Below are positions 1,449 through 64,000 of a stretch of DNA of 64,000 nucleotides, one piece after another. The stretch comes from an uncultured Candidatus Saccharibacteria bacterium (lineage in GTDB: Bacteria; Patescibacteriota; Minisyncoccia; Phycocordibacterales; UBA9973), in assembly GCA_964596395.1 (NCBI GenBank), contig CAZQSY010000001.1, positions 108,091 through 172,090 on the forward strand. Direction: 5' to 3'. The first letter of the stretch is position 1. The number at the start of each line of letters is the position of its first letter. A program made the translations under genes and the position numbers. The notes under the pieces are model-generated. The model was not told the DNA's origin, did no database searches, and saw nothing but the letters and a program-made list of their open reading frames with translations.

Positions 1449-1970
1449 AATTTTTTCTACGCCATTAATTAGTTTCGACTAAACCAAGGGCGTATTTTTC
1501 TATCACTGCTCTCGCCCGCTCGAATAATTTTTAAAACTTATAATGGAGCGCGCGACAAACAATGAACAGATATCTAACTAAACTTGAAAATAAAATGTTA
1601 ACTTATTTTATTTTCAATGACCTTTCTTTTGCCCGAAACATTTTTTGACCTGTCTCGGGTTCATCCTCATTCGCGATTTTTTCGACGAAATCACGAACGA
1701 AAACAAATGCAAACTTATGCGAATACAGAATAAACCTTGCGGCTTCATTCTGTAAGCACACGAAGTATTATAATATAAGGCCCGAAAGCTGAGCAATATA
1801 TTATGTGGATAACTATCGAGTTACAGAAAACTCTTGCTCTTCAAAGAGCCGGATAGATTGCCCACAGGGCTAATTGTCACACAATTTTAAAGAAAAAGCA
1901 AATCGAGACAGAAACCCAAAATCAATATAAAGCGCTGTCAATCCCGCTTTTGATACCCCGATTTAATCCT

Positions 1971-5791: not shown

Positions 5792-6832
5792 ATGATTAAG
5801 AAAAAAGAAAAGGAAGAAAAAAAGAGCAATGATAGTTCTATGCTGGATGATACTTTGAAAGCCATTCAGGCCAAATTCGGAGAAGGGGCAATTATGAAAC
5901 TCGGCGAAACCCCGAAAGTCGACGTGAATACCATACCGACCGGCTCTATCGGTCTCGACATGGCGCTCGGCGTAGGCGGCATACCGCGTGGCAGAATCAT
6001 TGAAATCTTCGGACCGGAATCCTCGGGCAAAACCACCCTTTCGCTTCACATCGTGGCCGAAGCGCAAAAGCGCGGCGGAGTTTGCGCCTACATCGACGCC
6101 GAACACGCCATGGACCCTGAATACACTAAGAAGCTCGGAGTAAACATCGACCAGCTCTTGATTTCCCAGCCGGACACCGGAGAACAAGCGCTTGAAATTA
6201 CCGAAAGCTTGGTGCGCACCGGAAAAATCGACGTAATCGTGGTTGACTCGGTGGCAGCGCTGACACCCAAAGACGAAATCGAGGGAGACATGGGCGCATA
6301 TCATGTAGGCAAACAGGCCCGACTGATGTCTCAAGCGCTCCGTAAACTCACGGCCATCGTTGCGAGAAGTAAAACGGTAGTGATTTTCATAAACCAAATC
6401 CGCATGCAAATCGGCGTGATGTTCGGCAACCCCGAAACTACGCCGGGCGGCAAAGCGCTGAAATTCTATACTTCGGTTCGGTTAGACATTCGCAAAATCG
6501 CGCAGATTAAGAAGGGTGAAGATGTAGTCGGCAGCCGCACGCGCGTGAAAGTGGTGAAAAACAAAGTCGCCGCGCCGTTCAAACAGACAGAATTTGATAT
6601 TATTTACAATGAAGGCATTTCTAAAGAGGGTGAAATGATGGCCCTAGGAGAAAAATTCAAAATCATAGAAAAAACCGGGAACTCCTATTCATACAAACCC
6701 GAGAACGGGGAAAAAGTGAAGCTGGGGGTCGGCTACGACTCTACCCGCACCTTTCTCAAAGCCAAAGAAAACGCAAAGCTGGCCGAGCAAATCCTGAAAG
6801 ACATCCGCAAAAAATTCGCGGAAGAAGCGTAA
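5792..6832 (+). CDS. recA: Recombinase RecA
   Basis: [21 protein letters not shown] Walker [10 protein letters not shown]2-loop region; Lys-rich N-terminal extension, true start may be Met at about 5840. Confidence 0.95.
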
Positions 6833-38849: not shown

Positions 38850-40595
38850 CTATTCGGTTTCCTTCCAGGAAGAAATGCTCCACCCGCCGGACGGACCGTT
38901 CACGAAATTCAAATCCGCCAGACCGGTCTCGTAAGTCACAACCGAATTGTTGTTAAGTTCTATCCATTTCCCGTTCAGCGCTTTGGCGGTGGCGTTGTTC
39001 TCGAGCTCCACTTCCCCATAGGCGGCGTATAGTATCACCGCGCCGCCGTTGTTGTGCAGTTCAATAGCCGAAGTAGAAGGCCAGGTGGAGAGAGCCATAA
39101 TGTAACTGCCGGGCACGCCGGAACCGCTAAAGGTTGTGTTGTTGTCTATCAGTATTTTGCCGTCGGCGATTATCAACCCCTCGGAAGAAGAGTAACTGGC
39201 GGAAAGATTTACGGTTGAATTATTTTTTATGGTTATGGTGCCTGTAACCCACAAAGTGCCCGTTATGGTTAAATGACCTCCGTTATCAACCAGCAAATTG
39301 CCAACCACTTTTTGCGGACCAAGAGACATAGACTCACCATTGGCGATGGTATAGTCGCCCGTGTGCGTCCCGCCCGCTTCGGCTTCGCTTTTCCAATCCA
39401 ATACGTTCTGGTCGGAAATCGGCATCGGCGTCTGCACCGGGTCGGCCAAACTGGTATCGCAGGATTTATTGTTGCCGGTTCCCGTTTGGCAATAATTTGT
39501 ACCGGCAATATTTGAATTATTCACCGTGTGCGCGTAAGCATTGCCTACGCCGCCGGAACCCACCGTTATGCCGTCGATTAACCCGGTCACGCCTCCCAAG
39601 TACAATCTGAAAAACCCATCCAGTCCCGACGGGGAAGTGTTGTTCCAAGTACCCGAATATTGCCCGACCTTGCCGAGCCCGCTCGGATAGCCATTACTGT
39701 TTCCACCTATTGTGTAATATTTTGAGGAATTCGTCGCTCCGTCAAGCACAAGCCAGTAAGTAACACCGGCCGTAAGTTCCGGATTAGAAGAAAAAGGCAA
39801 ACTCACCCAGTTGTAAGTGGCAGAAACCAATGAAGCGGACAAAGAGCGGGAGGTTATGGTAGTCGTACCGGGATTGCCCGACGCGTCATTTACAATACGA
39901 ACCGTCAAGTTCGAAGGAGTGCTGACCTTTTTCAAATACAGTTCAACTTTGTTGATTTGTCCCGTACTGCTCACCTGAAAACTTTGGGCAAAATCCTGGG
40001 AACCGCTTGCGTTCCCAAAAGTCACATCATAAGCGGGGGGCAGTATGTCGTTCGTCTGGTCGGCGGTGAGGGAAGCGGAATTGGCGGACGTGGCACTGCC
40101 GGTAATAGTGCCGGTGCCGGTGATGATACCGTTTGAATAAACGCTTCCGTTAATTACCGAATTGCTTCTCAAGTCGATGCCGCCGGTGCCCGATTGAACT
40201 CCGAAATTAAACGATGCCCCGGTGCCTGTGTTTAGCACCAGCTGAGTTGTCCTCTGCCTGTTCGACACGTCGCCGACAGCCGATACTGTTTTTTGGTTGT
40301 AGCCGGAATCAGCGATAGTGGCCGAACCCGAATTGCCGTTAAGCTCAATAATGTTTGTTCCTCCGATATCCTTTCCGGTCTTTAGGCGAAAATACGCGTC
40401 TTCCACCGCCGACTCGGCCAAGTACAAACTCTGGCTTGATTTAACCTGATTGTCCGCGCTTTTGAATCCGCGAACGGATGGCGAAACGAGACCGGAAGTA
40501 ACAGCCAAAGAAAGAAACAGGAAAAAAACCACTGACACGAGCATCGCCGCTCCGCCCTGCCTGTCTAAATTTTTAATTTCTTTAAGGTAGTACAT
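38850..40595 (-). CDS. Large pilus-associated protein (PilX/PilY1-like minor pilin or tip protein candidate)
   Basis: N-terminal hydrophobic pilin-like segment (GGAAMLVSVVFFLFLSLAV), then 550 aa of Gly/Ser/Thr/Asn-rich beta-type sequence; last gene of the pilus operon. Confidence 0.5.
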   Translation of the reverse strand: MYYLKEIKNLDRQGGAAMLVSVVFFLFLSLAVTSGLVSPSVRGFKSADNQVKSSQSLYLAESAVEDAYFRLKTGKDIGGTNIIELNGNSGSATIADSGYNQKTVSAVGDVSNRQRTTQLVLNTGTGASFNFGVQSGTGGIDLRSNSVINGSVYSNGIITGTGTITGSATSANSASLTADQTNDILPPAYDVTFGNASGSQDFAQSFQVSSTGQINKVELYLKKVSTPSNLTVRIVNDASGNPGTTTITSRSLSASLVSATYNWVSLPFSSNPELTAGVTYWLVLDGATNSSKYYTIGGNSNGYPSGLGKVGQYSGTWNNTSPSGLDGFFRLYLGGVTGLIDGITVGSGGVGNAYAHTVNNSNIAGTNYCQTGTGNNKSCDTSLADPVQTPMPISDQNVLDWKSEAEAGGTHTGDYTIANGESMSLGPQKVVGNLLVDNGGHLTITGTLWVTGTITIKNNSTVNLSASYSSSEGLIIADGKILIDNNTTFSGSGVPGSYIMALSTWPSTSAIELHNNGGAVILYAAYGEVELENNATAKALNGKWIELNNNSVVTYETGLADLNFVNGPSGGWSISSWKETE

Positions 40596-40598
40596 ATC

Positions 40599-41099
40599 TT
40601 AATAATCGCCGCGCAAAACCACCGTATCGTAAAAATCCGCCGTGCGACCTGCCGGGTCACGCTCGGATGAAACACTCACGAAAATTTTTACCGCCGTGCC
40701 CATGTTGGTATTTATTTGTGTGAAAGAAACGGAAGAAATCAGAGTATTGGGCGAATTTAAATTGTCGGTAAATACGTCGTTCTCTAAAAACCTCAGGGCC
40801 GAGCCGGAACGGGAGAATTCAACCGTCTTATTCGCCCCGTCATGGTCGACGGTGTTGATTTTGAGGTTGGTGCCGGTTATGGCGGCAATGCTTTTTGAAT
40901 TTTTTACTTCTCTGGAAATTCTTTCCATTATGACACCCCCCTGCGCGAGGTCCCTGTATATCGCCGCCTCTTTGAAAGACTTGGTCATCACCGCCAAGGA
41001 ATTGATAATGGCTATGGAAAAAATGGCGAAAAGGGAAACGTAAAAAACGGCCTCCAGAAGCGCGTATCCTTGATTATTTTTAAAGCCGTTTAGGTTCAT
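40599..41099 (-). CDS. Prepilin-type (class III signal) minor pilin/pseudopilin
   Basis: QG|YALLEAVFYVSLFAIFSIAI: Gly at -1, Glu at +5, hydrophobic helix. Confidence 0.6.
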   Translation of the reverse strand: MNLNGFKNNQGYALLEAVFYVSLFAIFSIAIINSLAVMTKSFKEAAIYRDLAQGGVIMERISREVKNSKSIAAITGTNLKINTVDHDGANKTVEFSRSGSALRFLENDVFTDNLNSPNTLISSVSFTQINTNMGTAVKIFVSVSSERDPAGRTADFYDTVVLRGDY

Positions 41100-41104
41100 A
41101 AATT

Positions 41105-41584
41105 TCAGCTGAATATGTCCATAACGTAAAATTGCAAATTTTTTGAAATGCTCTGCCCGCCTTCATTCCAGGAAATCGTGACTGTTACCAGTTTGGTGCC
41201 GGGGTCATCATCGCCAGAGTCGGCAATATCGTCGGTGGCGGGGTCGCGATTGACCGGCGAGATGCTTACCGTTCGCGTAAAAATACCCACCGTGCTCGGG
41301 GTGTCGGAGAGCGTCCAAGTGCCCGAGAAAGCCGGGTAGTACGGGGTCTCTTCGGAGAGGGCGGAAATGTTTCCCCAAGAATTATCGCGCAAAATGCGCA
41401 CGGCTTCGGCACCTTCCTCTAAAAGAAAACTCGCCTGGATATCGTGAAGCGCCTGGCGCGACACGGAAACCGATTTTCCCGCCACCGACATGGCGCCCAA
41501 CACCGAAGCGACGATGATTGATACCGCCACCAGTACTTCAACCATCATGAAGCCGCCGATTTTGATTTTTGGAAATTTTTTCAT
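41105..41584 (-). CDS. Prepilin-type minor pilin/pseudopilin
   Basis: GG|FMMVEVLVAVSIIVASVLGA: class III signal with Glu +5. Confidence 0.65.
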   Translation of the reverse strand: MKKFPKIKIGGFMMVEVLVAVSIIVASVLGAMSVAGKSVSVSRQALHDIQASFLLEEGAEAVRILRDNSWGNISALSEETPYYPAFSGTWTLSDTPSTVGIFTRTVSISPVNRDPATDDIADSGDDDPGTKLVTVTISWNEGGQSISKNLQFYVMDIFS

Positions 41585-41589
41585 GCTGA

Positions 41590-42057
41590 CTAATCAATGC
41601 CAACCGAGCCGGTGGCAAAAATGGTAATCGTTTTCTCTGAAGAAGGCGTGGCCACGGTCACGACACCGGTTTTGCTGGGAGCTCCGGACAATTTCTCGAA
41701 ATACAGCTCGCCGCTTGAGGCACTAACCCCCGCTAGGGTGACATCGGTGATATTCGCCGGAGAAATAATATCGATTATTTGATTATCCGAAGCGACTTCA
41801 GAAAAAACTTTGCCTTTGAAAATTATAACCCGGTCGGATTCGAAACGCACACCGTATTCAGACGAATCCAGAGAAGCCAAGCTCTTTGACTGAGCGTCGC
41901 GTAGGGCGGAGGCCGCATCTTCCAGCGCGTTTTTCAAAACCTGGTTTTCTTTTATATCTGAAAACTGGGCCAGCACCACCGAGACCAGAAAAATCAGAAT
42001 AGCCAAAACCACGAGTATCTCCATAAGTGTTATTCCTTTTTGGCGAAAATTTTTCAT
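41590..42057 (-). CDS. Type IV pilin (major pilin candidate)
   Basis: KG|ITLMEILVVLAILIFLVSVVLA: canonical prepilin peptidase site with Glu +5. Confidence 0.75.
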   Translation of the reverse strand: MKNFRQKGITLMEILVVLAILIFLVSVVLAQFSDIKENQVLKNALEDAASALRDAQSKSLASLDSSEYGVRFESDRVIIFKGKVFSEVASDNQIIDIISPANITDVTLAGVSASSGELYFEKLSGAPSKTGVVTVATPSSEKTITIFATGSVGID

Positions 42058-42107
42058 AAGGTTAAACCTTTTTTAAATTCCCAAGGTTTAACCTTGGGAC
42101 AAATGGC

Positions 42108-43325
42108 TCAGTTTATGTTATCCAGCACGGAATACAGGGGCGAAATCATGGATACGGCGAAAAAGCCGACAGCCCCGCCGATAATCACCATTAGCACCGG
42201 CTCGATAATCGTGGAAAGATTTTTGGTTTTGTTTTCTATCTCCGTTTCGTAAAAAGAAGCGATTTGCGAAAGCATTTCCGACAGCTTGCCGGTTTCTTCC
42301 CCGACTTGCGTCATTTCTTCCATCATTATCGGATAAAAATTCGTGTTTTCCTCGAACGCCTTCGAGAAAGGCGAACCCTTCTCTATGTATTCTTTCGCTT
42401 GCTCCAAAATTTTCTTGTAGTAAATATTTTGAACCACGTCTCCTGTTATTTCTATCGCCCGGGTAATAGACACGCCCGAAGACAAAAGCGAAGACATGGT
42501 GCGCGCCGTTCGCGCCGAATTGAGCTCCTTGGTCATGCTGCCGATAATCGGCAGCTTAATCAACGCGAAGTGCGTGTATTTCCGCATAAAGGGTGCCTTG
42601 AGGAGGTATACCGTTCCCGCCGCCGTGCCGATTATCAAAGTAAAAGAAATGAGCAGGTGCTCCGAGAAAAAGTTTCCGAGGGCGATAATAAATTTAGTGG
42701 AAGCAGGAAGGTCCACATTTAACTCCTTGAAGGTGGAGGCCAGCGTCGGCACCACAAAAGCAAACATCAGCACGCCAATCAGCACCATGGCCGAGAGAAT
42801 CACGCTCGGATAGATAAGCGCTCCCTTAACTTTCCTACTCAAAGAATACGCTTTTTCCAAATTCGCGCCCACTTCGGATAACGCGCCCGAGAGATTGCCC
42901 GATTCTTCGCCGGCCTTCGTCATGGAAACGAAAAGATTCGAAAAAACATTCGGAAATTTCGCGAAACCCGAAGAAAGCGTGCCGCCCGCGTCAATTTCTC
43001 CGGCCAGCGCGGTCAAAACATTCACGAAGCCGGGATTTTTCGTCTGCTTTTTCAAAACCGAAAGGGCTCTGGAAAGCGAAAGCCCGGCCTTGAGCATCCC
43101 GCTCAAATTTTTGGTGAAAATAATAAGTTCGCCAAGCCCCACCCTAGAAAGAAAGCGCGCGGTCAAGTTGGATAAATCGAACGGACTCGATTTTCCTTCT
43201 TTTATGGAAATCGGGAGGTCTCCCTTGTCGCGCAATTCGCGAGACAAGGTAAAACGGTCGGCCGCCTCCATCGTGCCTTCAAAAATTTGCCCGTTTTTCA
43301 ATTTTGCTTTGTAGGTAAAAAGCAT
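42108..43325 (-). CDS. pilC: Type IV pilus assembly platform protein PilC (GspF family)
   Basis: Two T2SS_F repeats, three TM segments, about 400 aa. Confidence 0.85.
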   Translation of the reverse strand: MLFTYKAKLKNGQIFEGTMEAADRFTLSRELRDKGDLPISIKEGKSSPFDLSNLTARFLSRVGLGELIIFTKNLSGMLKAGLSLSRALSVLKKQTKNPGFVNVLTALAGEIDAGGTLSSGFAKFPNVFSNLFVSMTKAGEESGNLSGALSEVGANLEKAYSLSRKVKGALIYPSVILSAMVLIGVLMFAFVVPTLASTFKELNVDLPASTKFIIALGNFFSEHLLISFTLIIGTAAGTVYLLKAPFMRKYTHFALIKLPIIGSMTKELNSARTARTMSSLLSSGVSITRAIEITGDVVQNIYYKKILEQAKEYIEKGSPFSKAFEENTNFYPIMMEEMTQVGEETGKLSEMLSQIASFYETEIENKTKNLSTIIEPVLMVIIGGAVGFFAVSMISPLYSVLDNIN

Positions 43326-43326
43326 A

Positions 43327-45078
43327 CTACTCTGAAACGACGCGAAAGACCTCCTCTAAAGAAGTATTGCCCAAAACCGCCTGGAAAACTCCGTCTTCGA
43401 GAATCGTCATCATGCCTTCGGTTTTCGCCTGCTTTTCTATTTCGTCCGAAGAAGCGCCACGCAAAACCATTTCTTTCACGGCCGGAGAAACCTTCAGGAC
43501 TTCGTGAATCCCCACGCGGCTCTGGTATCCGTCGGCCGACTCCTGACTCTTGGCCGGCTTGTAAAAAGGAACTTTGCTCCAGTCCTCCTTCGGCCCGACG
43601 AGCTTTTCGTTTTTTAGAAGCTCAAGCATCCGCTCTAAATTCACAACTTTCCCCAGATTTTTCAATTCATCCGCCGAGAGAAAATATTTTTCCCTGCTCG
43701 GCGTGAGCTTGCGCACCAGACGCTGGGCGATAATCGTCTTTACCGTTGAAACTATCAGAAACGGCAGAGCGCCCATGTCGATGAGACGGGGTATCGCTCC
43801 GGCCGCGGAATTGGTATGTATTGTAGAAAGCACCAGGTGGCCGGTCAGCGCGGCGTTTATCGCGAGACCGGCCGTCTCGCTGTCGCGGATTTCGCCCACC
43901 ATTATTATGTTCGGGTCTTGGCGCAGAAGCGAACGCAAGCCGCCCGCGAAAGTAAGCCCAATTTCGGGTTTTACCTGCACTTGGTTCACTCTGGGCATCT
44001 GATATTCTATCGGGTCTTCGACGGTGGAAATATTAACTTCCGGCCGGTTCAGCATCTCGAGCATGGTGTAAAGGGTAGTGGTCTTTCCGCTGCCGGTAGG
44101 GCCGGTGGCCAGCACCATGCCAATTTTTTGTTTCAGCGAATCGTGAATTCTCTCGAGCGCTTCCCCGTGAAAACCCAAGCCCTCCAGGGTAAAGCCGTGG
44201 GCGTTTTCTTTGAGTATTCTTATGACCGTTTTTTCTCCGTAAAAAATAGGCAGAGTAGAAACGCGAAAGGAAACTTTTTCTCCATTTTGCTCTATTTTGA
44301 ATCGTCCATCCTGCGGCAATCTTTTTTCGTCAAGCTTCAGGTTGGCCAGTACCTTGATGCGGGTGGTTATGCCGGGCGCCGCAGCTTTTTCCAAAACCAT
44401 GGCATCGTGCAGGATTCCATCTATCCTGTACCGCACAATCAAATCGCTCTCCCCGGGCTCTATGTGTATGTCCGAAGCGTTCTGAAGTATGGCGTGAAAA
44501 ATCAGAGAGTCCACGATTTTTACGACCGGCAAGTCCTCGGCCATGGCCTTGAGTTCCGCTTCCGTTTTTTCGGTATCCTTGGCGTCAACTTTCAGAGAAG
44601 CCGCTTCTTTTTTTATGATACTGTCAAAGTCGGCCTGCAAACTTTTTCGATACTGCACTAACGCTGATTTTATCGATAGAGAATCAGTCAGCCGGGGAAG
44701 AATTTTTTCTCCCGCCTTTTTCTTGATGAAATCAATCATCGGCAAATCGTCCACGTCGAGCATCGCCACCTCCAATCCCGATTTTGAATTTTGATAAGCG
44801 ATGATGTTGTGATTTCTGGCAATCGGTTCGGGAATCAAGGAGAGAACCGAAGAATCTATTTTTTTCTTGGTCAGGTCAACGAAGGGAATGCCCAGCACGA
44901 AGGCCTCCATGCGCTTCAAGTCGGTTTCGGACATTTTTTCTTCCGAAATCAAGAGGTCTCCCAGTTTTTGTTTTTTTGCCTCGGCTTTTTTCGCCAGCTC
45001 TTCCAAGTCGCTTTTCGCGATGACTCCCGATTGCAAGACCGCTTTCTTGAATTGCTCTTCGTTGATTTGCATTACCAA
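43327..45078 (-). CDS. pilB: Type IV pilus assembly ATPase PilB (GspE family)
   Basis: N-terminal GSPII_E_N domain, Walker A GPTGSGKTTTLY, Asp box, Walker B, His box. Confidence 0.9.
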   Translation of the reverse strand: MVMQINEEQFKKAVLQSGVIAKSDLEELAKKAEAKKQKLGDLLISEEKMSETDLKRMEAFVLGIPFVDLTKKKIDSSVLSLIPEPIARNHNIIAYQNSKSGLEVAMLDVDDLPMIDFIKKKAGEKILPRLTDSLSIKSALVQYRKSLQADFDSIIKKEAASLKVDAKDTEKTEAELKAMAEDLPVVKIVDSLIFHAILQNASDIHIEPGESDLIVRYRIDGILHDAMVLEKAAAPGITTRIKVLANLKLDEKRLPQDGRFKIEQNGEKVSFRVSTLPIFYGEKTVIRILKENAHGFTLEGLGFHGEALERIHDSLKQKIGMVLATGPTGSGKTTTLYTMLEMLNRPEVNISTVEDPIEYQMPRVNQVQVKPEIGLTFAGGLRSLLRQDPNIIMVGEIRDSETAGLAINAALTGHLVLSTIHTNSAAGAIPRLIDMGALPFLIVSTVKTIIAQRLVRKLTPSREKYFLSADELKNLGKVVNLERMLELLKNEKLVGPKEDWSKVPFYKPAKSQESADGYQSRVGIHEVLKVSPAVKEMVLRGASSDEIEKQAKTEGMMTILEDGVFQAVLGNTSLEEVFRVVSE

Positions 45079-60790: not shown

Positions 60791-62323
60791 ATGAGTTCTA
60801 CCTTAATAATAATTCTCATTGGGGCATTAGTGCTCCTTTTGGGCGTTTCCATCGGCTACTACCTGCGCGTAATTGTTGCCCTGGGAAAAAGAAAATCGAT
60901 TGAAATCGACATCAAGCAGATGCTTGTCTCGGCTAAAGAAGAAGCGCAGAAAATCACCGACGACGCCAAGGCGAAAGCCGACAAAAAGCTCGCCGAGCTG
61001 AAGGACGAGGAAAAAAAGAAAGAGGAAGAGTTTAAAGAAACAGAGAAACGCCTTATCAAGAAAGACGAGTTTTTGGACGCCCGCCAGGTGGAAATAGACA
61101 AGGAAGTTGAAAATATTAAAACAAAAGTCGAAGAGATCAAAAAAATCCAGGAGAAAGTCCTCTCGCTGGAAGCCGAGAAACGAACGGCGCTGGAAAGGGT
61201 CTCAAAACTTTCGGAGCTCGACGCCAAAGAAGAGCTCATGCGGGACATAGAAAAGAAATATGAAGAAGACCTGCTGGTAAGAATTCAGAAACTCGAAAAT
61301 TCGAGCGATGAGAAGCTCGATAAGCGGGCCAAGGAAATTCTAGCCACTTCAATTCAGCGATTGGCTTCTTCTACCGCCGCCGAACTCATGACCACCACGG
61401 TCACCATTCCGAACAACGAAATCAAAGGAAAAATCATCGGCAAAGAAGGCCGAAACATCCGCGCCTTCGAACGGGCTGCCGGCGTCGAATTGATTGTCGA
61501 CGACACTCCGGGCTCAATTATCATTTCTTCCTTCGACCCGATTCGCCGGCAAGTGGCTCGACTGGCGCTTGAAAATCTAATACTCGACGGCCGTATTCAG
61601 CCCGCCAAGATTGAAGAGTTGGTAGAAAAAGCGCGCGAAGAAATCAACAAAATAATCAAAGAAAAAGGCGAACAGGCGGTGTATGAATGCGGAATATTCA
61701 ACTTCGACCCGCGCATTGTAGCTATTCTGGGACGCCTGTACTTCCGCACCAGTTACGGCCAAAATGTTTTGCAGCATTCTATTGAAATGGCGCACATTGC
61801 CGGCATGATTGCCGAAGAACTCGGCGCCGACGTGGCCATCGCCAAAGCCGGCGCCCTGGTGCACGACATCGGCAAGGCCCTAGACCATGAGGTGCAGGGC
61901 ACGCACGTGGAAATCGGTATCAGAATCCTCCAAAAATTCGGGGCGGACGAAAGAATAATTACCTCCATGAAATCCCACCATGAGGACTACCCGTACGAAA
62001 CGGTAGAAGCGGTAATCGTGCAAACAGCCGACGCCATATCCGGCGGCCGCCCGGGCGCGCGCCGCGACTCGGTAGAGAATTATCTGAAGCGCTTGCAGGA
62101 GCTTGAAGCGCTGGTAAACGCCTTTGAAGGAGTTGAAAAATCTTATGCCCTGCAAGCTGGCCGGGAAATTCGCATCTTCGTTACGCCCGACAAAATTTCA
62201 GACGCCGAAGCGAAAATCATGGCCCGCGACATTGCCACCAAAATCGAGCAGGAGCTCAAATACCCCGGTGAAATCAAAGTAACAATCATCCGCGAAACGA
62301 GAGTTATCGAGTATGCCAGGTAG
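60791..62323 (+). CDS. rny: Ribonuclease Y
   Basis: N-terminal TM helix, coiled coil, KH domain (GKIIGKEGRNIRAFE), HD domain (HSIEMAHIAGMIAEELG...LVHDIGKA); promoter-like TTGACT-17 nt-TATATT at 60607-60635. Confidence 0.9.
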   Translation: MSSTLIIILIGALVLLLGVSIGYYLRVIVALGKRKSIEIDIKQMLVSAKEEAQKITDDAKAKADKKLAELKDEEKKKEEEFKETEKRLIKKDEFLDARQVEIDKEVENIKTKVEEIKKIQEKVLSLEAEKRTALERVSKLSELDAKEELMRDIEKKYEEDLLVRIQKLENSSDEKLDKRAKEILATSIQRLASSTAAELMTTTVTIPNNEIKGKIIGKEGRNIRAFERAAGVELIVDDTPGSIIISSFDPIRRQVARLALENLILDGRIQPAKIEELVEKAREEINKIIKEKGEQAVYECGIFNFDPRIVAILGRLYFRTSYGQNVLQHSIEMAHIAGMIAEELGADVAIAKAGALVHDIGKALDHEVQGTHVEIGIRILQKFGADERIITSMKSHHEDYPYETVEAVIVQTADAISGGRPGARRDSVENYLKRLQELEALVNAFEGVEKSYALQAGREIRIFVTPDKISDAEAKIMARDIATKIEQELKYPGEIKVTIIRETRVIEYAR

Positions 62324-62556
62324 AAAATTTAAATTTTAATGGCTCAAATGGCAGGATTTGAGCCGTTGGGTCTTATGTTTGACAACTTTTTGACAAAATA
62401 GTCAAAGTGCCTGCCTACCGGCAGGCAGGTTCGCTTCTATTGCGTTAAAAAACCCTTGTTATATAATGTATAAGCACTTTTAAAAGTAACTTGGTCGACA
62501 AGAATCCCGTTAGGGGTCAAACTAACGGAAAAATTATAAGCTTGATTTTAAGTTCT

Positions 62557-62829
62557 ATGAATAAACAAGCATTAGCTGACTGGGTATATGGAAAAATCGG
62601 CGGCACGAAAGTGCAGGCCGAAGAGGTCGTAGATGGTCTTTTTAACGCCATCACCGACACTATGAAGAAAGGAGGTGAGGTTTCTATCGCCGGTTTCGGT
62701 ATTTTCTCGGTAAAAGCTCGCGCCGCTCGCATGGCCCGCAACCCCAAGACCGGGGAGCAGGTCAAAGTGGCCGCCAAGAAAGTTCCGAAATTCCGCCCCG
62801 CCAAAGCCCTGAAGGACGCGGTAGAATAA
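62557..62829 (+). CDS. hup: DNA-binding protein HU
   Basis: MNKQALADWV...GFGIFSVKARAARMARNPKTGEQVKVAAKKVPKFRPAKALKDAV; start at internal Met; -10 TATAAT at 62467-62472. Confidence 0.85.
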   Translation: MNKQALADWVYGKIGGTKVQAEEVVDGLFNAITDTMKKGGEVSIAGFGIFSVKARAARMARNPKTGEQVKVAAKKVPKFRPAKALKDAVE

Positions 62830-62848
62830 ATTTTCTAGGAACCAAATT

Positions 62849-62873
62849 AAAAAGCCCCGCAAGGGGTTTTTTA
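62849..62873. terminator. Bidirectional intrinsic terminator aaaagcccc-gcaa-ggggtttt between hup and lexA
   Basis: GC stem with A-run upstream and U-run downstream; serves convergent genes. Confidence 0.65.
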
Positions 62874-62883
62874 ATTTCTAATT

Positions 62884-63453
62884 CTAGTATTTTCTTATCA
62901 CCGCTTTCAGGACGGCGACAATTTTTAGGCTGTGGATGGGATAAATCGGCTCATAATTTTTGTTGGCCGGTTCGAGCCAGGCCTTGCCTCCCCGCTTGCG
63001 CAGGTACTTCATAGTAAACTCCCCGTCCACTTCGGCAATCACAATTTCGCCGTCTTCGGCGTGGTCACGTTTTTCCACCAGCACCATATCCCCCGGCTCG
63101 ATGTGCGCGTCTATCATAGAATCGCCGTCAACTTCAAGAAGATACGAAAGCGATTTGTTTTTTATTAAAAGAGAATCCAAGTTCACCGTATCGGCCAATT
63201 CTTCTTCGACAGAAGCCGGGAAGCCGGCGGTCACAAAACCGAGCTTCTTAATTTCACCGAAGGTATTCGAAGGCACCAACCTCCCCAGATGGTCTTTGGC
63301 CACTATCCCCGCCTCAATCAATTTGTTCACAATTTTAAAAACGGCGTTCTTTGACTTGAAACCGAAGAGCCCTGCCATCTCTCTATACGTCGGCATGCGC
63401 TTGTTCTTCTCGTAAAAGCTCTCTAGTTTTGTTTGGTAAAAATTCCTCACCAT
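62884..63453 (-). CDS. lexA: LexA repressor
   Basis: N-terminal wHTH, cleavage-site region VTAGFPAS (Ala-Gly), S24 peptidase Ser (VDGDSM) and Lys (FTMKYL). Confidence 0.9.
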   Translation of the reverse strand: MVRNFYQTKLESFYEKNKRMPTYREMAGLFGFKSKNAVFKIVNKLIEAGIVAKDHLGRLVPSNTFGEIKKLGFVTAGFPASVEEELADTVNLDSLLIKNKSLSYLLEVDGDSMIDAHIEPGDMVLVEKRDHAEDGEIVIAEVDGEFTMKYLRKRGGKAWLEPANKNYEPIYPIHSLKIVAVLKAVIRKY

Positions 63454-63474
63454 AAAAAAATCCTGCCCGCAATG

Positions 63475-63672
63475 CTAGGCAAAGCGCAGCAGGCGGGGAA
63501 AAATCTTTCTGAAAAAATTCTGCCGGTTGTGAAAGCGGATTTTTTTAAGCAAGAGCTTGTGGTCTCTCGCTTCCCTCTTGTACTCTTCCCCGCGCAAGAT
63601 TTTGAAGTCAATTATTCTGTTAATCCTATTGATTTCTTTTTCTATGGTTTGTAAATATTGTTTTTGCGACAT
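63475..63672 (-). CDS. Small basic protein co-transcribed upstream of lexA from an SOS-box promoter
   Basis: 66 aa from Met at 63672 (MSQKQYLQTIEKEINRINRIIDFKILRGEEYKREARDHKLLLKKIRFHNRQNFFRKIFPRLLRFA); the ATG is 7 nt after the -10; ORF track lists 63475..63708. Confidence 0.45.
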   Translation of the reverse strand: MSQKQYLQTIEKEINRINRIIDFKILRGEEYKREARDHKLLLKKIRFHNRQNFFRKIFPRLLRFA

Positions 63673-63678
63673 GCAAAT

Positions 63679-63708
63679 AGTATAAGTGAACGAGCGTTCA
63701 CCTGTCAA
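63679..63708 (-). promoter_or_regulatory. LexA-regulated promoter: TTGACA - spacer containing SOS box GAACGCTCGTTC (GAAC-N4-GTTC) - TATACT
   Basis: Minus strand reads TTGACAggtGAACgctcGTTCacTTATACTatttgcATG; plus-strand box at 63688-63699. Confidence 0.6.
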
Positions 63709-63725
63709 ATGTAAGGTGTGGATAA

Positions 63726-63968
63726 CTAAAGTGGCTCAAATAGTTCTTCCAGTTCTTTTCTTTTCTCCGGATTAATTTTCGCGCTGAAAAATTCAGACAA
63801 CAATTCGGGTTCGTAGAAAGTTATGGGTTTTTCAGCCGCCATATTTATCAATTCATCCAAAGTCATAGGCGTGAATTCTATTTTTTCTCCTCCATCCAAT
63901 TCAGGAAGGGCTACTTTTTTCAACTTTCTGCCTATAAATACGTAAACCGCCCATTCGACTTTAGCCAA
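63726..63968 (-). CDS. Hypothetical small acidic protein
   Basis: 80-aa ORF, no recognisable motif. Confidence 0.3.
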   Translation of the reverse strand: MAKVEWAVYVFIGRKLKKVALPELDGGEKIEFTPMTLDELINMAAEKPITFYEPELLSEFFSAKINPEKRKELEELFEPL

Positions 63969-64000
63969 TGGCTGGAGAGCCTTCCATAAAACTAAATCAC

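What the first reader, a model, noticed from the sequence alone, without database searches (positions are those of the whole stretch)
63475..63708. LexA-regulated promoter with the SOS box in its spacer drives a 66-aa basic protein followed by lexA
On the minus strand the promoter reads TTGACA-ggtGAACgctcGTTCac-TTATACT-atttgc-ATG. The perfect GAAC-N4-GTTC (Cheo-box type) LexA operator sits exactly in the -35/-10 spacer. The near-leaderless ORF MSQKQYLQTIEKEINRINRIIDFKILRGEEYKREARDHKLLLKKIRFHNRQNFFRKIFPRLLRFA ends 21 bp before lexA. No such box is visible in front of recA in this window. The small protein is a candidate SOS effector (for example a division inhibitor in the SulA/YneA functional class, or a LexA partner) of a previously unrecognised family.
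Basis: partly seen in the sequence, partly recalled or inferred. Interest (0 to 1): 0.6.

Follow-up and report, generated by a model that had tools for sequence, protein, structure and literature searches.

The report
SOS operon: small protein plus LexA
A compact, strongly conserved promoter carrying a LexA operator and a perfect DnaA-box-like site drives a leaderless gene for an uncharacterised 65-residue basic protein followed by lexA, an arrangement shared by many Patescibacteria and pointing to an unstudied DNA-damage-response factor.

Summary

On the minus strand a TTGACA-18 nt-TATACT promoter has its spacer filled by the palindrome GTGAACGCTCGTTCAC. The ATG lies 6 nt after the -10, so the mRNA is probably leaderless. 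lexA starts 21 nt after the stop.

The downstream gene is a real LexA. It passes TIGR00498, and its Ala-Gly, Ser and Lys residues align to those of E. coli LexA.

One box in 64 kb is not significant on its own. Comparison settles it. In about 80 related Patescibacteria loci the 16-mer operator is identical in 76 of 78, lexA always follows the small ORF, and the ORF is under strong purifying selection (dN/dS about 0.11).

The small protein is a basic helical hairpin with an amphipathic C-terminal tail. It has no match in Pfam, NCBIfam, PHROGs or PDB, and its function is untested.

It is exact in 72 of 81 related promoters.

recA has no box in this window.

LexA autoregulation through this motif type is ordinary. 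The small protein family and the DnaA-box-like element are the new parts.

The parts
63717..63725 (-). TTATCCACA, identical to the DnaA-box consensus. It occupies -53 to -45 relative to the inferred transcription start and directly follows the stop codon of the upstream gene.
   Evidence: One search finds two perfect copies in the window, of which this is one. The 9-mer is exact in 72 and has one mismatch in 8 of 81 distinct related promoters, always in the same orientation, 8-10 nt (72 cases) or 0-1 nt (5 cases) upstream of the -35; the extended consensus is aG-TTATCCACA-G. It is otherwise absent from about 395 kb of the close relatives' loci (L001-L085). Binding by DnaA is inferred, not tested.
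63703..63708 (-). -35 hexamer TTGACA
   Evidence: 11/12 promoter match. The hexamer is exact in 73 of 81 related promoters.
63686..63701 (.). LexA operator GTGAACGCTCGTTCAC, a Cheo-type GAAC-N4-GTTC core with extended arms, filling the -35/-10 spacer (-30 to -15)
   Evidence: The 16-mer pattern GTGAACG..CGTTCAC is present in 76 of 78 related loci and the core in 77 of 78.
63679..63684 (-). -10 hexamer TATACT
   Evidence: It is conserved in 76 of 78 related loci.
63475..63672 (-). Gene for a 65-aa basic protein (pI 11.0): a helical hairpin plus an amphipathic C-terminal tail. The ATG lies 6 nt after the -10, so the mRNA is inferred to be leaderless.
   Evidence: Sequence and ORF. Relatives: 114 clusters at 55-100% identity; 320 clusters at the 50% level with E<=1e-3, all about 60-70 aa. 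Selection: dN/dS about 0.11 with synonymous sites saturated. Structure: AlphaFold pLDDT 87.7, helices 3-27 and 32-57. Tail amphipathicity. The same 6-nt spacing occurs in L029 and L038.
63455..63495 (-). Hairpin followed by seven U, spanning the stop codon of the small gene and ending just before the lexA ATG. It is a possible partial terminator or attenuator, or merely the lexA ribosome-binding region (GGCAGGA).
   Evidence: One search gives a terminator-like hit at 63483-63462. One search gives -23.8 kcal/mol, z = -1.9. It is not conserved: most relatives have overlapping or abutting genes.
62884..63453 (-). lexA (189 aa): winged-helix N-domain plus S24 autoprotease domain, with A76-G77 cleavage site, S112 and K149
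   Evidence: Peptidase_S24 scores 5e-27. TIGR00498 lexA scores 112.6 bits against a cut-off of 110.95. Alignment to E. coli LexA puts A76-G77, S112 and K149 on A84-G85, S119 and K156. The best solved relative is T. maritima LexA, 3k2z.

Best explanation
This is the autoregulated SOS operon of a Patescibacterium of the Paceibacteria/Nomurabacteria kind. A 53-nt intergenic region holds four elements: a DnaA-box-like site, a consensus -35, a LexA operator that fills the spacer, and a near-consensus -10.

Inferred from anatomy and from the known behaviour of LexA:
- In undamaged cells a LexA dimer sits on GTGAACGCTCGTTCAC and blocks RNA polymerase.
- After DNA damage, RecA filaments trigger LexA self-cleavage at Ala76-Gly77 and the promoter fires.
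- Transcription starts at or next to the A of the ATG, giving a leaderless bicistronic mRNA for the small protein and then LexA.
- Newly made LexA closes the loop once damage is repaired.
- The conserved TTATCCACA most likely brings a second input, DnaA. The sign of that input is unknown.

Shown: the 65-aa product is a real, strongly constrained protein, a basic two-helix hairpin with an amphipathic C-terminal tail, belonging to an undescribed family that is always encoded next to lexA.

Committed guess at its function, about 0.35 on its own: it is a damage and replication-stress checkpoint effector. Its level rises when LexA is being destroyed, and it transiently holds back a cell-cycle step, division most likely or replication initiation. 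The C-terminal amphipathic helix would act as a membrane- or partner-docking element.

Confidence by part: operon and LexA control about 0.9; leaderless start about 0.75; DnaA as the factor at TTATCCACA about 0.6; effector role as stated about 0.35.
For: Promoter anatomy.

LexA identity and catalytic residues.

Conservation:
- 159 species genomes encode a relative, and 80 loci were fetched.
- The operator 16-mer is present in 76 of 78 loci, the -35 directly next to the operator in 71 of 78 and the -10 in 76 of 78. Meanwhile synonymous sites of the adjacent ORF are saturated (pS 0.83).
- lexA follows the small ORF in 78 of 80 loci. The other two have fewer than 220 nt of sequence left.
- In 51 of those 78 loci the gap is 9 nt or less, or the genes overlap as ATGCGTAA.

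Distant family members (30-45% identity) are still in lexA operons, in either gene order and sometimes with a Y-family polymerase gene, and keep the same promoter design.

Leaderless start: there are exactly 6 nt between the -10 and the ATG in the window, L029 and L038. Closer relatives of the window have leaders of 33-130 nt.

DnaA-box-like site.

Protein properties.

From general knowledge: the genes next to lexA in several Gram-positive bacteria (yneA, sosA, divS, chiZ) and the lexA-sulA operon of Pseudomonas encode SOS division inhibitors. B. subtilis sda is a DnaA-dependent gene for a helical-hairpin checkpoint protein.
Against: - No experiment: LexA or DnaA binding, damage induction, the transcription start and translation are all inferred.
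- The small protein has no homology to any known SOS effector.
- It has no transmembrane segment, unlike the YneA, SosA and SidA inhibitors.
- Tight translational coupling to lexA, and sequence conservation as high as that of LexA itself, would fit a stoichiometric partner of LexA at least as well.
- A terminator-like hairpin lies between the two genes in this window, so co-transcription here may be partial.
- The regulon could be surveyed only in this window and in the lexA neighbourhoods of relatives.
Confidence: 0.6

Rival explanations
1. The small protein is a regulatory partner of the SOS switch itself rather than a downstream effector. It would bind LexA as a co-repressor or a protector against cleavage (as phage GIL01 gp7 does), or bind RecA filaments (as DinI and RecX do), and so tune the threshold or shut-off of the response.
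For: Linkage to lexA is invariable, in both gene orders. Translational coupling is frequent (the ATGCGTAA overlap in 18 loci, TAAATG in 5), which favours fixed stoichiometry. The core is about as conserved as LexA itself (60-88% against 76-82% identity). From general knowledge, SOS-induced feedback modulators are common.
Against: There is no homology to DinI, RecX or any known LexA-binding protein. No complex prediction could be run. LexA here has a complete DNA-binding domain and a complete cleavage domain, so nothing appears to be missing that a partner would have to supply.
Confidence: 0.3
2. The small basic protein binds nucleic acid and acts directly in repair or damage tolerance, for example as an accessory factor of a Y-family polymerase or as a nucleoid- or RNA-binding protein.
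Against: In the window and its about 80 close relatives no polymerase gene is in the operon. The fold match is not specific. No known DNA- or RNA-binding motif was found.
Confidence: 0.15
3. TTATCCACA is not a DnaA site. It is bound by another factor, possibly the small protein itself: two conserved cis elements for two co-encoded proteins.
For: The operon encodes two proteins and its promoter holds two conserved elements. DnaA binding was not tested. Only a single box is present, not a cluster.
Against: The element matches the DnaA-box consensus at 9 of 9 positions. Its extended form, G-TTATCCACA-G, matches the flanks of the strong E. coli oriC boxes R1 and R4 (recalled from memory). A 9-mer equal to that one sequence by chance is about 1 in 260,000. 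The site is asymmetric, whereas a hairpin dimer would be expected to prefer a symmetric site.
Confidence: 0.2
4. The hairpin-plus-U7 between the genes is an efficient terminator, so in this genome the small gene is monocistronic and lexA is expressed from somewhere else.
For: There is a terminator-like hit at 63483-63462 followed by seven T. The fold is -23.8 kcal/mol.
Against: No promoter-like site lies between 63475 and 63670. The z-score is only -1.9. In most relatives the genes overlap or abut and no hairpin is present. GGCAGGA, 8 nt upstream of the ATG, looks like the lexA ribosome-binding site.
Confidence: 0.1
5. The box is a chance palindrome and the small ORF is not a gene.
For: One GAAC-N4-GTTC in 64 kb is the chance expectation.
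Against: The operator is invariant in the same promoter position in 76 of 78 relatives. The ORF has dN/dS about 0.11 and a confident conserved fold.
Confidence: 0.01

Closest known systems
Cheo-box (GAAC-N4-GTTC) LexA operators and autoregulated lexA promoters of Gram-positive bacteria; the Patescibacteria SOS network of Sanchez-Osuna, Barbe and Erill, Environ Microbiol 2017 (PMID 28618189, cited in PMC8565304)
   Same: The palindromic core is the same, the operator overlaps the core promoter, and LexA represses its own gene.
   Different: The arms are extended (GTGAACG..CGTTCAC) and the centre is G/C-rich (GCTC or GAGC) rather than A/T-rich. lexA is the second gene, behind an unknown small ORF. 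The 2017 paper could not be read here, so I cannot say whether it already describes the small ORF or the TTATCCACA element.
SOS division inhibitors encoded next to lexA: lexA-sulA operon (Pseudomonas), and yneA, sosA, divS and chiZ divergent from lexA (Bacillus, Staphylococcus, Corynebacterium, Mycobacterium)
   Same: It is a small, lineage-specific, LexA-controlled gene physically linked to lexA.
   Different: There is no sequence or fold relationship. There is no transmembrane segment and no LysM domain. The gene is upstream of and translationally coupled to lexA rather than divergent. It is far more conserved than those inhibitors usually are.
Sda of Bacillus subtilis (DnaA-dependent replication checkpoint protein)
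   Same: It is a small antiparallel helical hairpin expressed from a promoter carrying a DnaA box. It is a plausible link between replication status and a cell-cycle decision.
   Different: It is not homologous (hhalign probability 3.5%). Sda targets sporulation kinases, which these organisms lack. Sda is not LexA-controlled.
SOS feedback modulators DinI and RecX; LexA-binding gp7 of phage GIL01
   Same: They are small proteins produced with or under the SOS system that act on RecA or LexA.
   Different: There is no homology to the E. coli DinI or RecX families in Pfam or NCBIfam. The interaction is untested.
DnaA-regulated promoters (dnaA, nrdAB, sda)
   Same: A consensus DnaA box lies just upstream of or abutting the -35.
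   Different: It is combined with a LexA operator at the promoter of the SOS master regulator. I know of no described case of that combination, and the literature search found none.

Membership tests
LexA-autoregulated promoter with Cheo-type SOS box | GAAC-N4-GTTC palindrome overlapping the core promoter | tested here: met
   The box at 63699-63688 lies inside the 18-nt spacer of TTGACA/TATACT.
LexA-autoregulated promoter with Cheo-type SOS box | The controlled operon encodes a LexA with a DNA-binding domain, an Ala-Gly site and a Ser/Lys dyad | tested here: met
   TIGR00498 scores 112.6 against a cut-off of 110.95. A76-G77, S112 and K149 align to the E. coli residues. The Pfam LexA_DNA_bind domain is only sub-threshold (E 0.0043).
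LexA-autoregulated promoter with Cheo-type SOS box | Operator conserved in orthologous promoters | tested here: met
   The core is present in 77 of 78 loci and the 16-mer in 76 of 78.
LexA-autoregulated promoter with Cheo-type SOS box | LexA binds the site; transcription is induced by DNA damage | not testable with these tools
   This needs a gel-shift or reporter assay, or transcriptomics.
DnaA box | 9-mer matching TTATCCACA | tested here: met
   The match at 63725-63717 is perfect.
DnaA box | Conserved in position and orientation among relatives | tested here: met
   It is exact in 72 and has one mismatch in 8 of 81 promoters, at a fixed orientation, with spacing to the -35 of 8-10 nt or 0-1 nt.
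DnaA box | Bound by DnaA | not testable with these tools
Leaderless mRNA | Start codon at the predicted transcription start, with no Shine-Dalgarno sequence | tested here: met
   Six nt (atttgc) lie between TATACT and the ATG. The spacing is identical in L029 and L038. The start itself was not mapped.
SulA / YneA / SosA / SidA-type SOS division inhibitors | Homology to SulA, or a transmembrane segment (with or without LysM) as in YneA, SosA and SidA | tested here: not met
   There is no Pfam or NCBIfam hit. The longest run free of charged or polar (D, E, K, R, H, N, Q) residues is 10 or fewer across 60 family members.
SulA / YneA / SosA / SidA-type SOS division inhibitors | Blocks cell division when induced | not testable with these tools
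   This needs expression in cells.
Sda-type checkpoint hairpin | Sequence relationship to Sda | tested here: not met
Sda-type checkpoint hairpin | Small antiparallel helical hairpin | tested here: met
   AlphaFold gives helices 3-27 and 32-57, pLDDT 87.7. The fold is generic.
DinI / RecX / other described small SOS proteins | Match to the family profile | tested here: not met
   The small protein has no hit in Pfam, NCBIfam, PHROGs or PDB sequences.

The most novel reading that the evidence does not exclude
In these reduced genomes the SOS response may be close to minimal, with the lexA operon as its main or only target. The 65-aa hairpin protein would then be its principal effector: a new class of cell-cycle checkpoint factor whose synthesis integrates DNA damage (LexA) and replication status (DnaA) at one 53-nt promoter. 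That would be the first described case of direct dual DnaA and LexA control of the SOS master operon.
Probability: 0.25. Interest if true: 0.7.

Novelty: new variant of a known kind. Interest (0 to 1): 0.45.

Why it matters
Patescibacteria are a large, mostly uncultured part of bacterial diversity, with tiny genomes and few regulators. How they control their cell cycle under stress is essentially unknown.

This locus offers three things:
- A short, highly conserved protein that is always wired to LexA. It is a concrete candidate for that control, is easy to synthesise, and can be tested in surrogate hosts.
- A promoter in which a LexA operator and a consensus DnaA box are both nearly invariant. 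If DnaA really acts here, the two classical sensors of chromosome trouble converge on the SOS master operon.
- A clean natural example of a leaderless start that arose repeatedly by loss of the leader.

If the small protein turns out to be just a LexA cofactor, it would still change how LexA function is modelled in this group.

Tried and rejected
- **Function by homology.** Pfam, NCBIfam, PHROGs and a PDB sequence profile gave nothing significant for the small protein. Pfam gave only two sub-threshold matches, the better to HisKA (E 0.0048, residues 2-22), which I read as coiled-coil-like similarity.
- **Deep profile search.** The search of 1.84 billion representatives found 320 clusters, all standalone proteins of about 60-70 aa, with no informative fusions.
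- **Complex prediction with LexA.** The two genes are in frame, separated by one TAG. One joint alignment was also misaligned (A3).
- **Defining the regulon.** No other site lies within 3 mismatches in the window. The 18 sites with one mismatch to the core show no promoter context. No extra promoter-located boxes occur in 395 kb of related loci. A metagenome scan for the perfect operator outside lexA-type flanks returned mostly unrelated, high-GC organisms and was uninformative.
- **Prior work.** The key 2017 paper on the Patescibacteria SOS network is not held, and papers citing it give no detail.
- **Structured RNA.** Rfam gave no family in the window or in 19 related loci.
- **Sda homology.** Rejected.
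- **A uORF-type role for the small ORF.** Rejected, because amino-acid conservation is strong and the gene lies downstream of lexA in one lineage.

Full report
**What is in the sequence**

Read on the minus strand, the region runs in this order.
- The upstream gene ends at its stop TAG, 63728-63726. This gene is open to the window end.
- TTATCCACA follows at 63725-63717.
- Eight nt further on comes TTGACA, 63708-63703.
- An 18-nt spacer, gGTGAACGCTCGTTCACt, follows.
- TATACT lies at 63684-63679, then atttgc, then the ATG at 63672.

The promoter scan scores this site 11/12, the best in 62300-64000. The ORF is 65 aa, MSQKQY...LLRFA, with its stop at 63477-63475. The lister's 77-aa version starts at the TTG of the -35. 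After 21 nt comes the ATG of a 189-aa ORF (62884-63453). Downstream, an HU gene is convergent, and the RNase Y gene lies upstream of HU on the same (plus) strand.

**Is it more than chance?**

A single GAAC-N4-GTTC in 64 kb is what shuffles give (1 observed, 1.39 expected). That is expected about 2e-4 times in 64 kb by my own arithmetic. Nothing else in the window comes within three mismatches of it. The decisive evidence is comparative.

**The downstream gene is LexA**
- Peptidase_S24 scores 5e-27.
- The NCBIfam lexA equivalog scores 112.6 bits against a cut-off of 110.95.
- The best solved relative is Thermotoga LexA, 3k2z.
- The Pfam LexA DNA-binding domain matches only below threshold (E 0.0043). 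The N-domain is therefore divergent but present.
- Sources name close homologues 'repressor LexA' in Nomurabacteria and Paceibacterota.

**The small ORF is a real, conserved gene**
- A word-indexed search found 114 clusters at 55-100% identity, all 60-94 aa (nearly all 64-75), all unnamed or 'hypothetical', from Nomurabacteria, Paceibacterota and other Patescibacteria.
- A full HMM scan of 1.84 billion representatives found 320 clusters at E<=1e-3, again standalone proteins of about 60-70 aa.
- The alignment has 13 invariant positions among the close members. The family signature is MSxxQY..LE.E...N..ID.KI..G..Y..EA..HK.LL, followed by a variable hydrophobic and basic tail.
- Over the first 47 codons of 74 distinct sequences, non-synonymous differences average 0.158 per site and synonymous differences 0.833 per site. 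The median dN/dS is 0.11 for pairs where dS is measurable.
- AlphaFold with this alignment gives a confident hairpin, helices 3-27 and 32-57, mean pLDDT 87.7, and a less confident short C-terminal helix.
- The protein has pI 11.0. Its last 11 residues have a helical hydrophobic moment of 0.85-0.89.
- Across 60 family members the tail is more amphipathic than its shuffles in 82% of cases, and no member has an apolar run long enough to span a membrane.

**The pair and its promoter are conserved as a unit**

A scan of one genome per species found 159 genomes encoding a relative, and 80 loci were fetched. All whose titles give a taxon below 'bacterium' are labelled as Patescibacteria lineages except one (L015), labelled Burkholderiales.
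- lexA follows the small ORF in 78 of the 80 loci where the ORF could be delimited. The other two run out of sequence.
- The genes overlap as ATGCGTAA in 18 loci and are 0-9 nt apart in 33 more.
- Of 78 loci with at least 200 nt upstream, 77 have the core box, 76 the 16-mer GTGAACG..CGTTCAC, 71 have TTGACA directly next to it, and 76 have the -10.
- The central four bases are nearly always GCTC or its reverse complement GAGC.
- This degree of invariance sits beside synonymous sites that are saturated, so it reflects selection rather than recent common descent.

**Distant members tell the same story**

Proteins at 30-45% identity were found through a second profile search. Their gene contexts are:
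- small-53aa-LexA (L086);
- small-LexA (L090);
- small-S24-81aa-Y-family polymerase (the P0245 contig);
- in a Taylorbacteria genome, LexA-small-Y-family polymerase (L088).

Their promoters keep the design. L086 and L090 read GTTATCCACATTGACTAGTGAAC....GTTCAC.TATACT. L088 has TTTTCCACA-N8-CTTGCA-tgGTGAACGATTGTTTAC-TACAAT in front of lexA. The small gene is therefore a stable component of the lexA operon, whatever the order.

TTATCCACA at 63725-63717 is the DnaA-box consensus.
- Among 81 distinct related promoters it is exact in 72 and one base off in 8, always in the same orientation.
- The flanks are conserved as aG-TTATCCACA-G, while the 8-10 nt between it and the -35 vary freely.
- In five promoters it abuts the -35 instead. 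The two spacing classes differ by roughly one helical turn.
- Apart from these promoters the 9-mer does not occur at all in about 395 kb of the close relatives' loci (L001-L085), and it occurs only once more in the window. That second copy (1812-1804) is within the chance expectation of about 0.5 per window.
- From memory, the strong E. coli origin boxes R1 and R4 share the same extended G-TTATCCACA-G.

I therefore think DnaA is the likeliest binder (about 0.6). No DnaA or origin sequence from this clade was available to test this, and the effect on transcription cannot be deduced. The site occupies -53 to -45 here, which is compatible with activation or with interference.

**Leaderless start**

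With the -10 ending at 63679, the usual start 7 nt downstream is the A of the ATG (63672), and there is no Shine-Dalgarno sequence. In most relatives the box-to-ATG distance is larger: the leader between the -10 and the ATG has a median of 51 nt and a range of 33-130 nt. In L029 and L038, which are no closer to the window than many leader-bearing loci, the spacing is again exactly 6 nt. Three instances of the same spacing argue that the ATG is used at the 5' end. Mapping of the start is still needed.

**Between the genes**

In this window a hairpin followed by seven U spans the stop codon and ends at the lexA ATG (-23.8 kcal/mol, z -1.9). It is not conserved, and no promoter-like site lies inside the small gene. 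I read it as at most a partial terminator that could raise the ratio of small protein to LexA. The GGCAGGA within it is also the likely lexA ribosome-binding site.

**Extent of the regulon, as far as it can be seen**

recA (5792-6832) has no box within its upstream region. No promoter-located site appears elsewhere in the window or in the related loci beyond the lexA promoters. One exception is noted below under 'noticed in passing': a second LexA paralogue in L086 has its own box. The sample covers only a fraction of any genome, so a very small regulon is suggested, not shown.

**What the small protein does**

Homology and fold give no answer. The context gives three readings.
1. **Checkpoint-type effector.**
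   - The gene is derepressed exactly when LexA is being destroyed.
   - Genes beside lexA are division inhibitors in several phyla (general knowledge).
   - A DnaA box at the promoter recalls sda.
   - The amphipathic basic and aromatic tail (NFFRKIFPRLLRF) resembles membrane-targeting helices such as that of MinD. This is a resemblance from memory, not a test.
2. **Partner of LexA or RecA.** This is favoured by the tight translational coupling and by conservation as high as that of LexA itself.
3. **Nucleic-acid-binding repair accessory.** This is suggested by the charge and by the link to a Y-family polymerase in distant lineages.

I commit to (1) at about 0.35, with (2) at about 0.3 and (3) at about 0.15. 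A complex prediction that could separate them was not possible with the tools.

**Comparison with what is known, and novelty**

LexA repressing its own promoter through a GAAC-N4-GTTC operator is textbook. A 2017 comparative study of the Patescibacteria SOS network exists (cited in PMC8565304 and PMC7739468) but could not be read. I do not know whether it already mentions the small ORF.

Three things are not covered by any family library or paper I could search:
- the small protein family;
- its universal coupling to lexA;
- the conserved DnaA-box-like element at this promoter.

I rate this a new variant of a known kind, of moderate interest.

Noticed in passing
window 1804-1812 (minus strand): This is the only other perfect TTATCCACA in the window. 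It lies 6 nt upstream of a promoter-like ATTGCT...TATTATAAT and about 380 nt upstream of a gene for a secreted protein with peptidoglycan-binding-like repeats (my reading of the sequence, no domain search), which runs off the window start. No ORF and no Rfam family lies in between. It may be chance (about 0.5 expected per window) or a second DnaA-type site.
   Followed up: partly
L088 225-300: In a Taylorbacteria contig, TTATCCACA lies 17 nt upstream of CTTGACA-17 nt-TATACT, followed by 6 nt and the ATG of an HTH_3/SocA_Panacea (antitoxin-like) gene. This is another leaderless promoter with the 9-mer but without a LexA box. It hints that the 9-mer's binder has other targets.
   Followed up: no
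L086 4640-4690: A second S24/LexA-like paralogue has its own promoter, TTGCCT-tatAGAACGATCGTTCG-TATACT, then 6 nt and the ATG. It again has the operator in the spacer and a leaderless start, but no small ORF and no TTATCCACA.
   Followed up: no
L088 1813-4021; contig of P0245 (no DNA held): In distant lineages the operon also holds a Y-family DNA polymerase gene (IMS domain). One has a 53-aa ORF and another an 81-aa ORF of unknown nature between the genes.
   Followed up: partly
related loci L001-L085, 12-base box: The non-palindromic centre of the operator is almost always GCTC or its reverse complement GAGC. The palindromic intermediate GATC is seen once, and GCGC never. The asymmetry seems to be kept while its orientation flips.
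   Followed up: no
leaders of L001-L085 (between the -10 and the ATG): The 33-130-nt leaders of relatives share short recurring motifs right after the start (ACATAGGTCATTTA, AAGTCGGGTCA) and small hairpins. In L001, L074 and others an ATG sits at the leaderless position and opens a short upstream ORF (17 codons in L001) that ends 4 nt before the real start. There is no Rfam match.
   Followed up: partly
L006, L008, L012 (95-104 nt) and L023, L027, L042 (72-83 nt) between the small ORF and lexA: Several lineages have acquired G/C-rich hairpin-forming inserts between the two genes, where most relatives have overlapping genes. They may be mobile repeat elements or attenuators.
   Followed up: no
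window 63453-63672: The small ORF and lexA are in the same reading frame, separated by one TAG and seven sense codons. Stop-codon read-through would give a fusion protein. The frame relation is not conserved in relatives, so this is probably incidental.
   Followed up: partly
L092 2925-2990: The metagenome scan hit a contig reading TTATCCACC-attgtg-GTGAACGTCCGTTCAC-taTATAAT, then 6 nt and an ATG. It has the same overall design in front of an unidentified gene at a contig end.
   Followed up: no
window 40000-44000: Cumulative GC skew reaches its minimum here and rises afterwards, together with a change in the dominant coding strand. There is no cluster of DnaA-box-like 9-mers, so this is not obviously an origin.
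   Followed up: no
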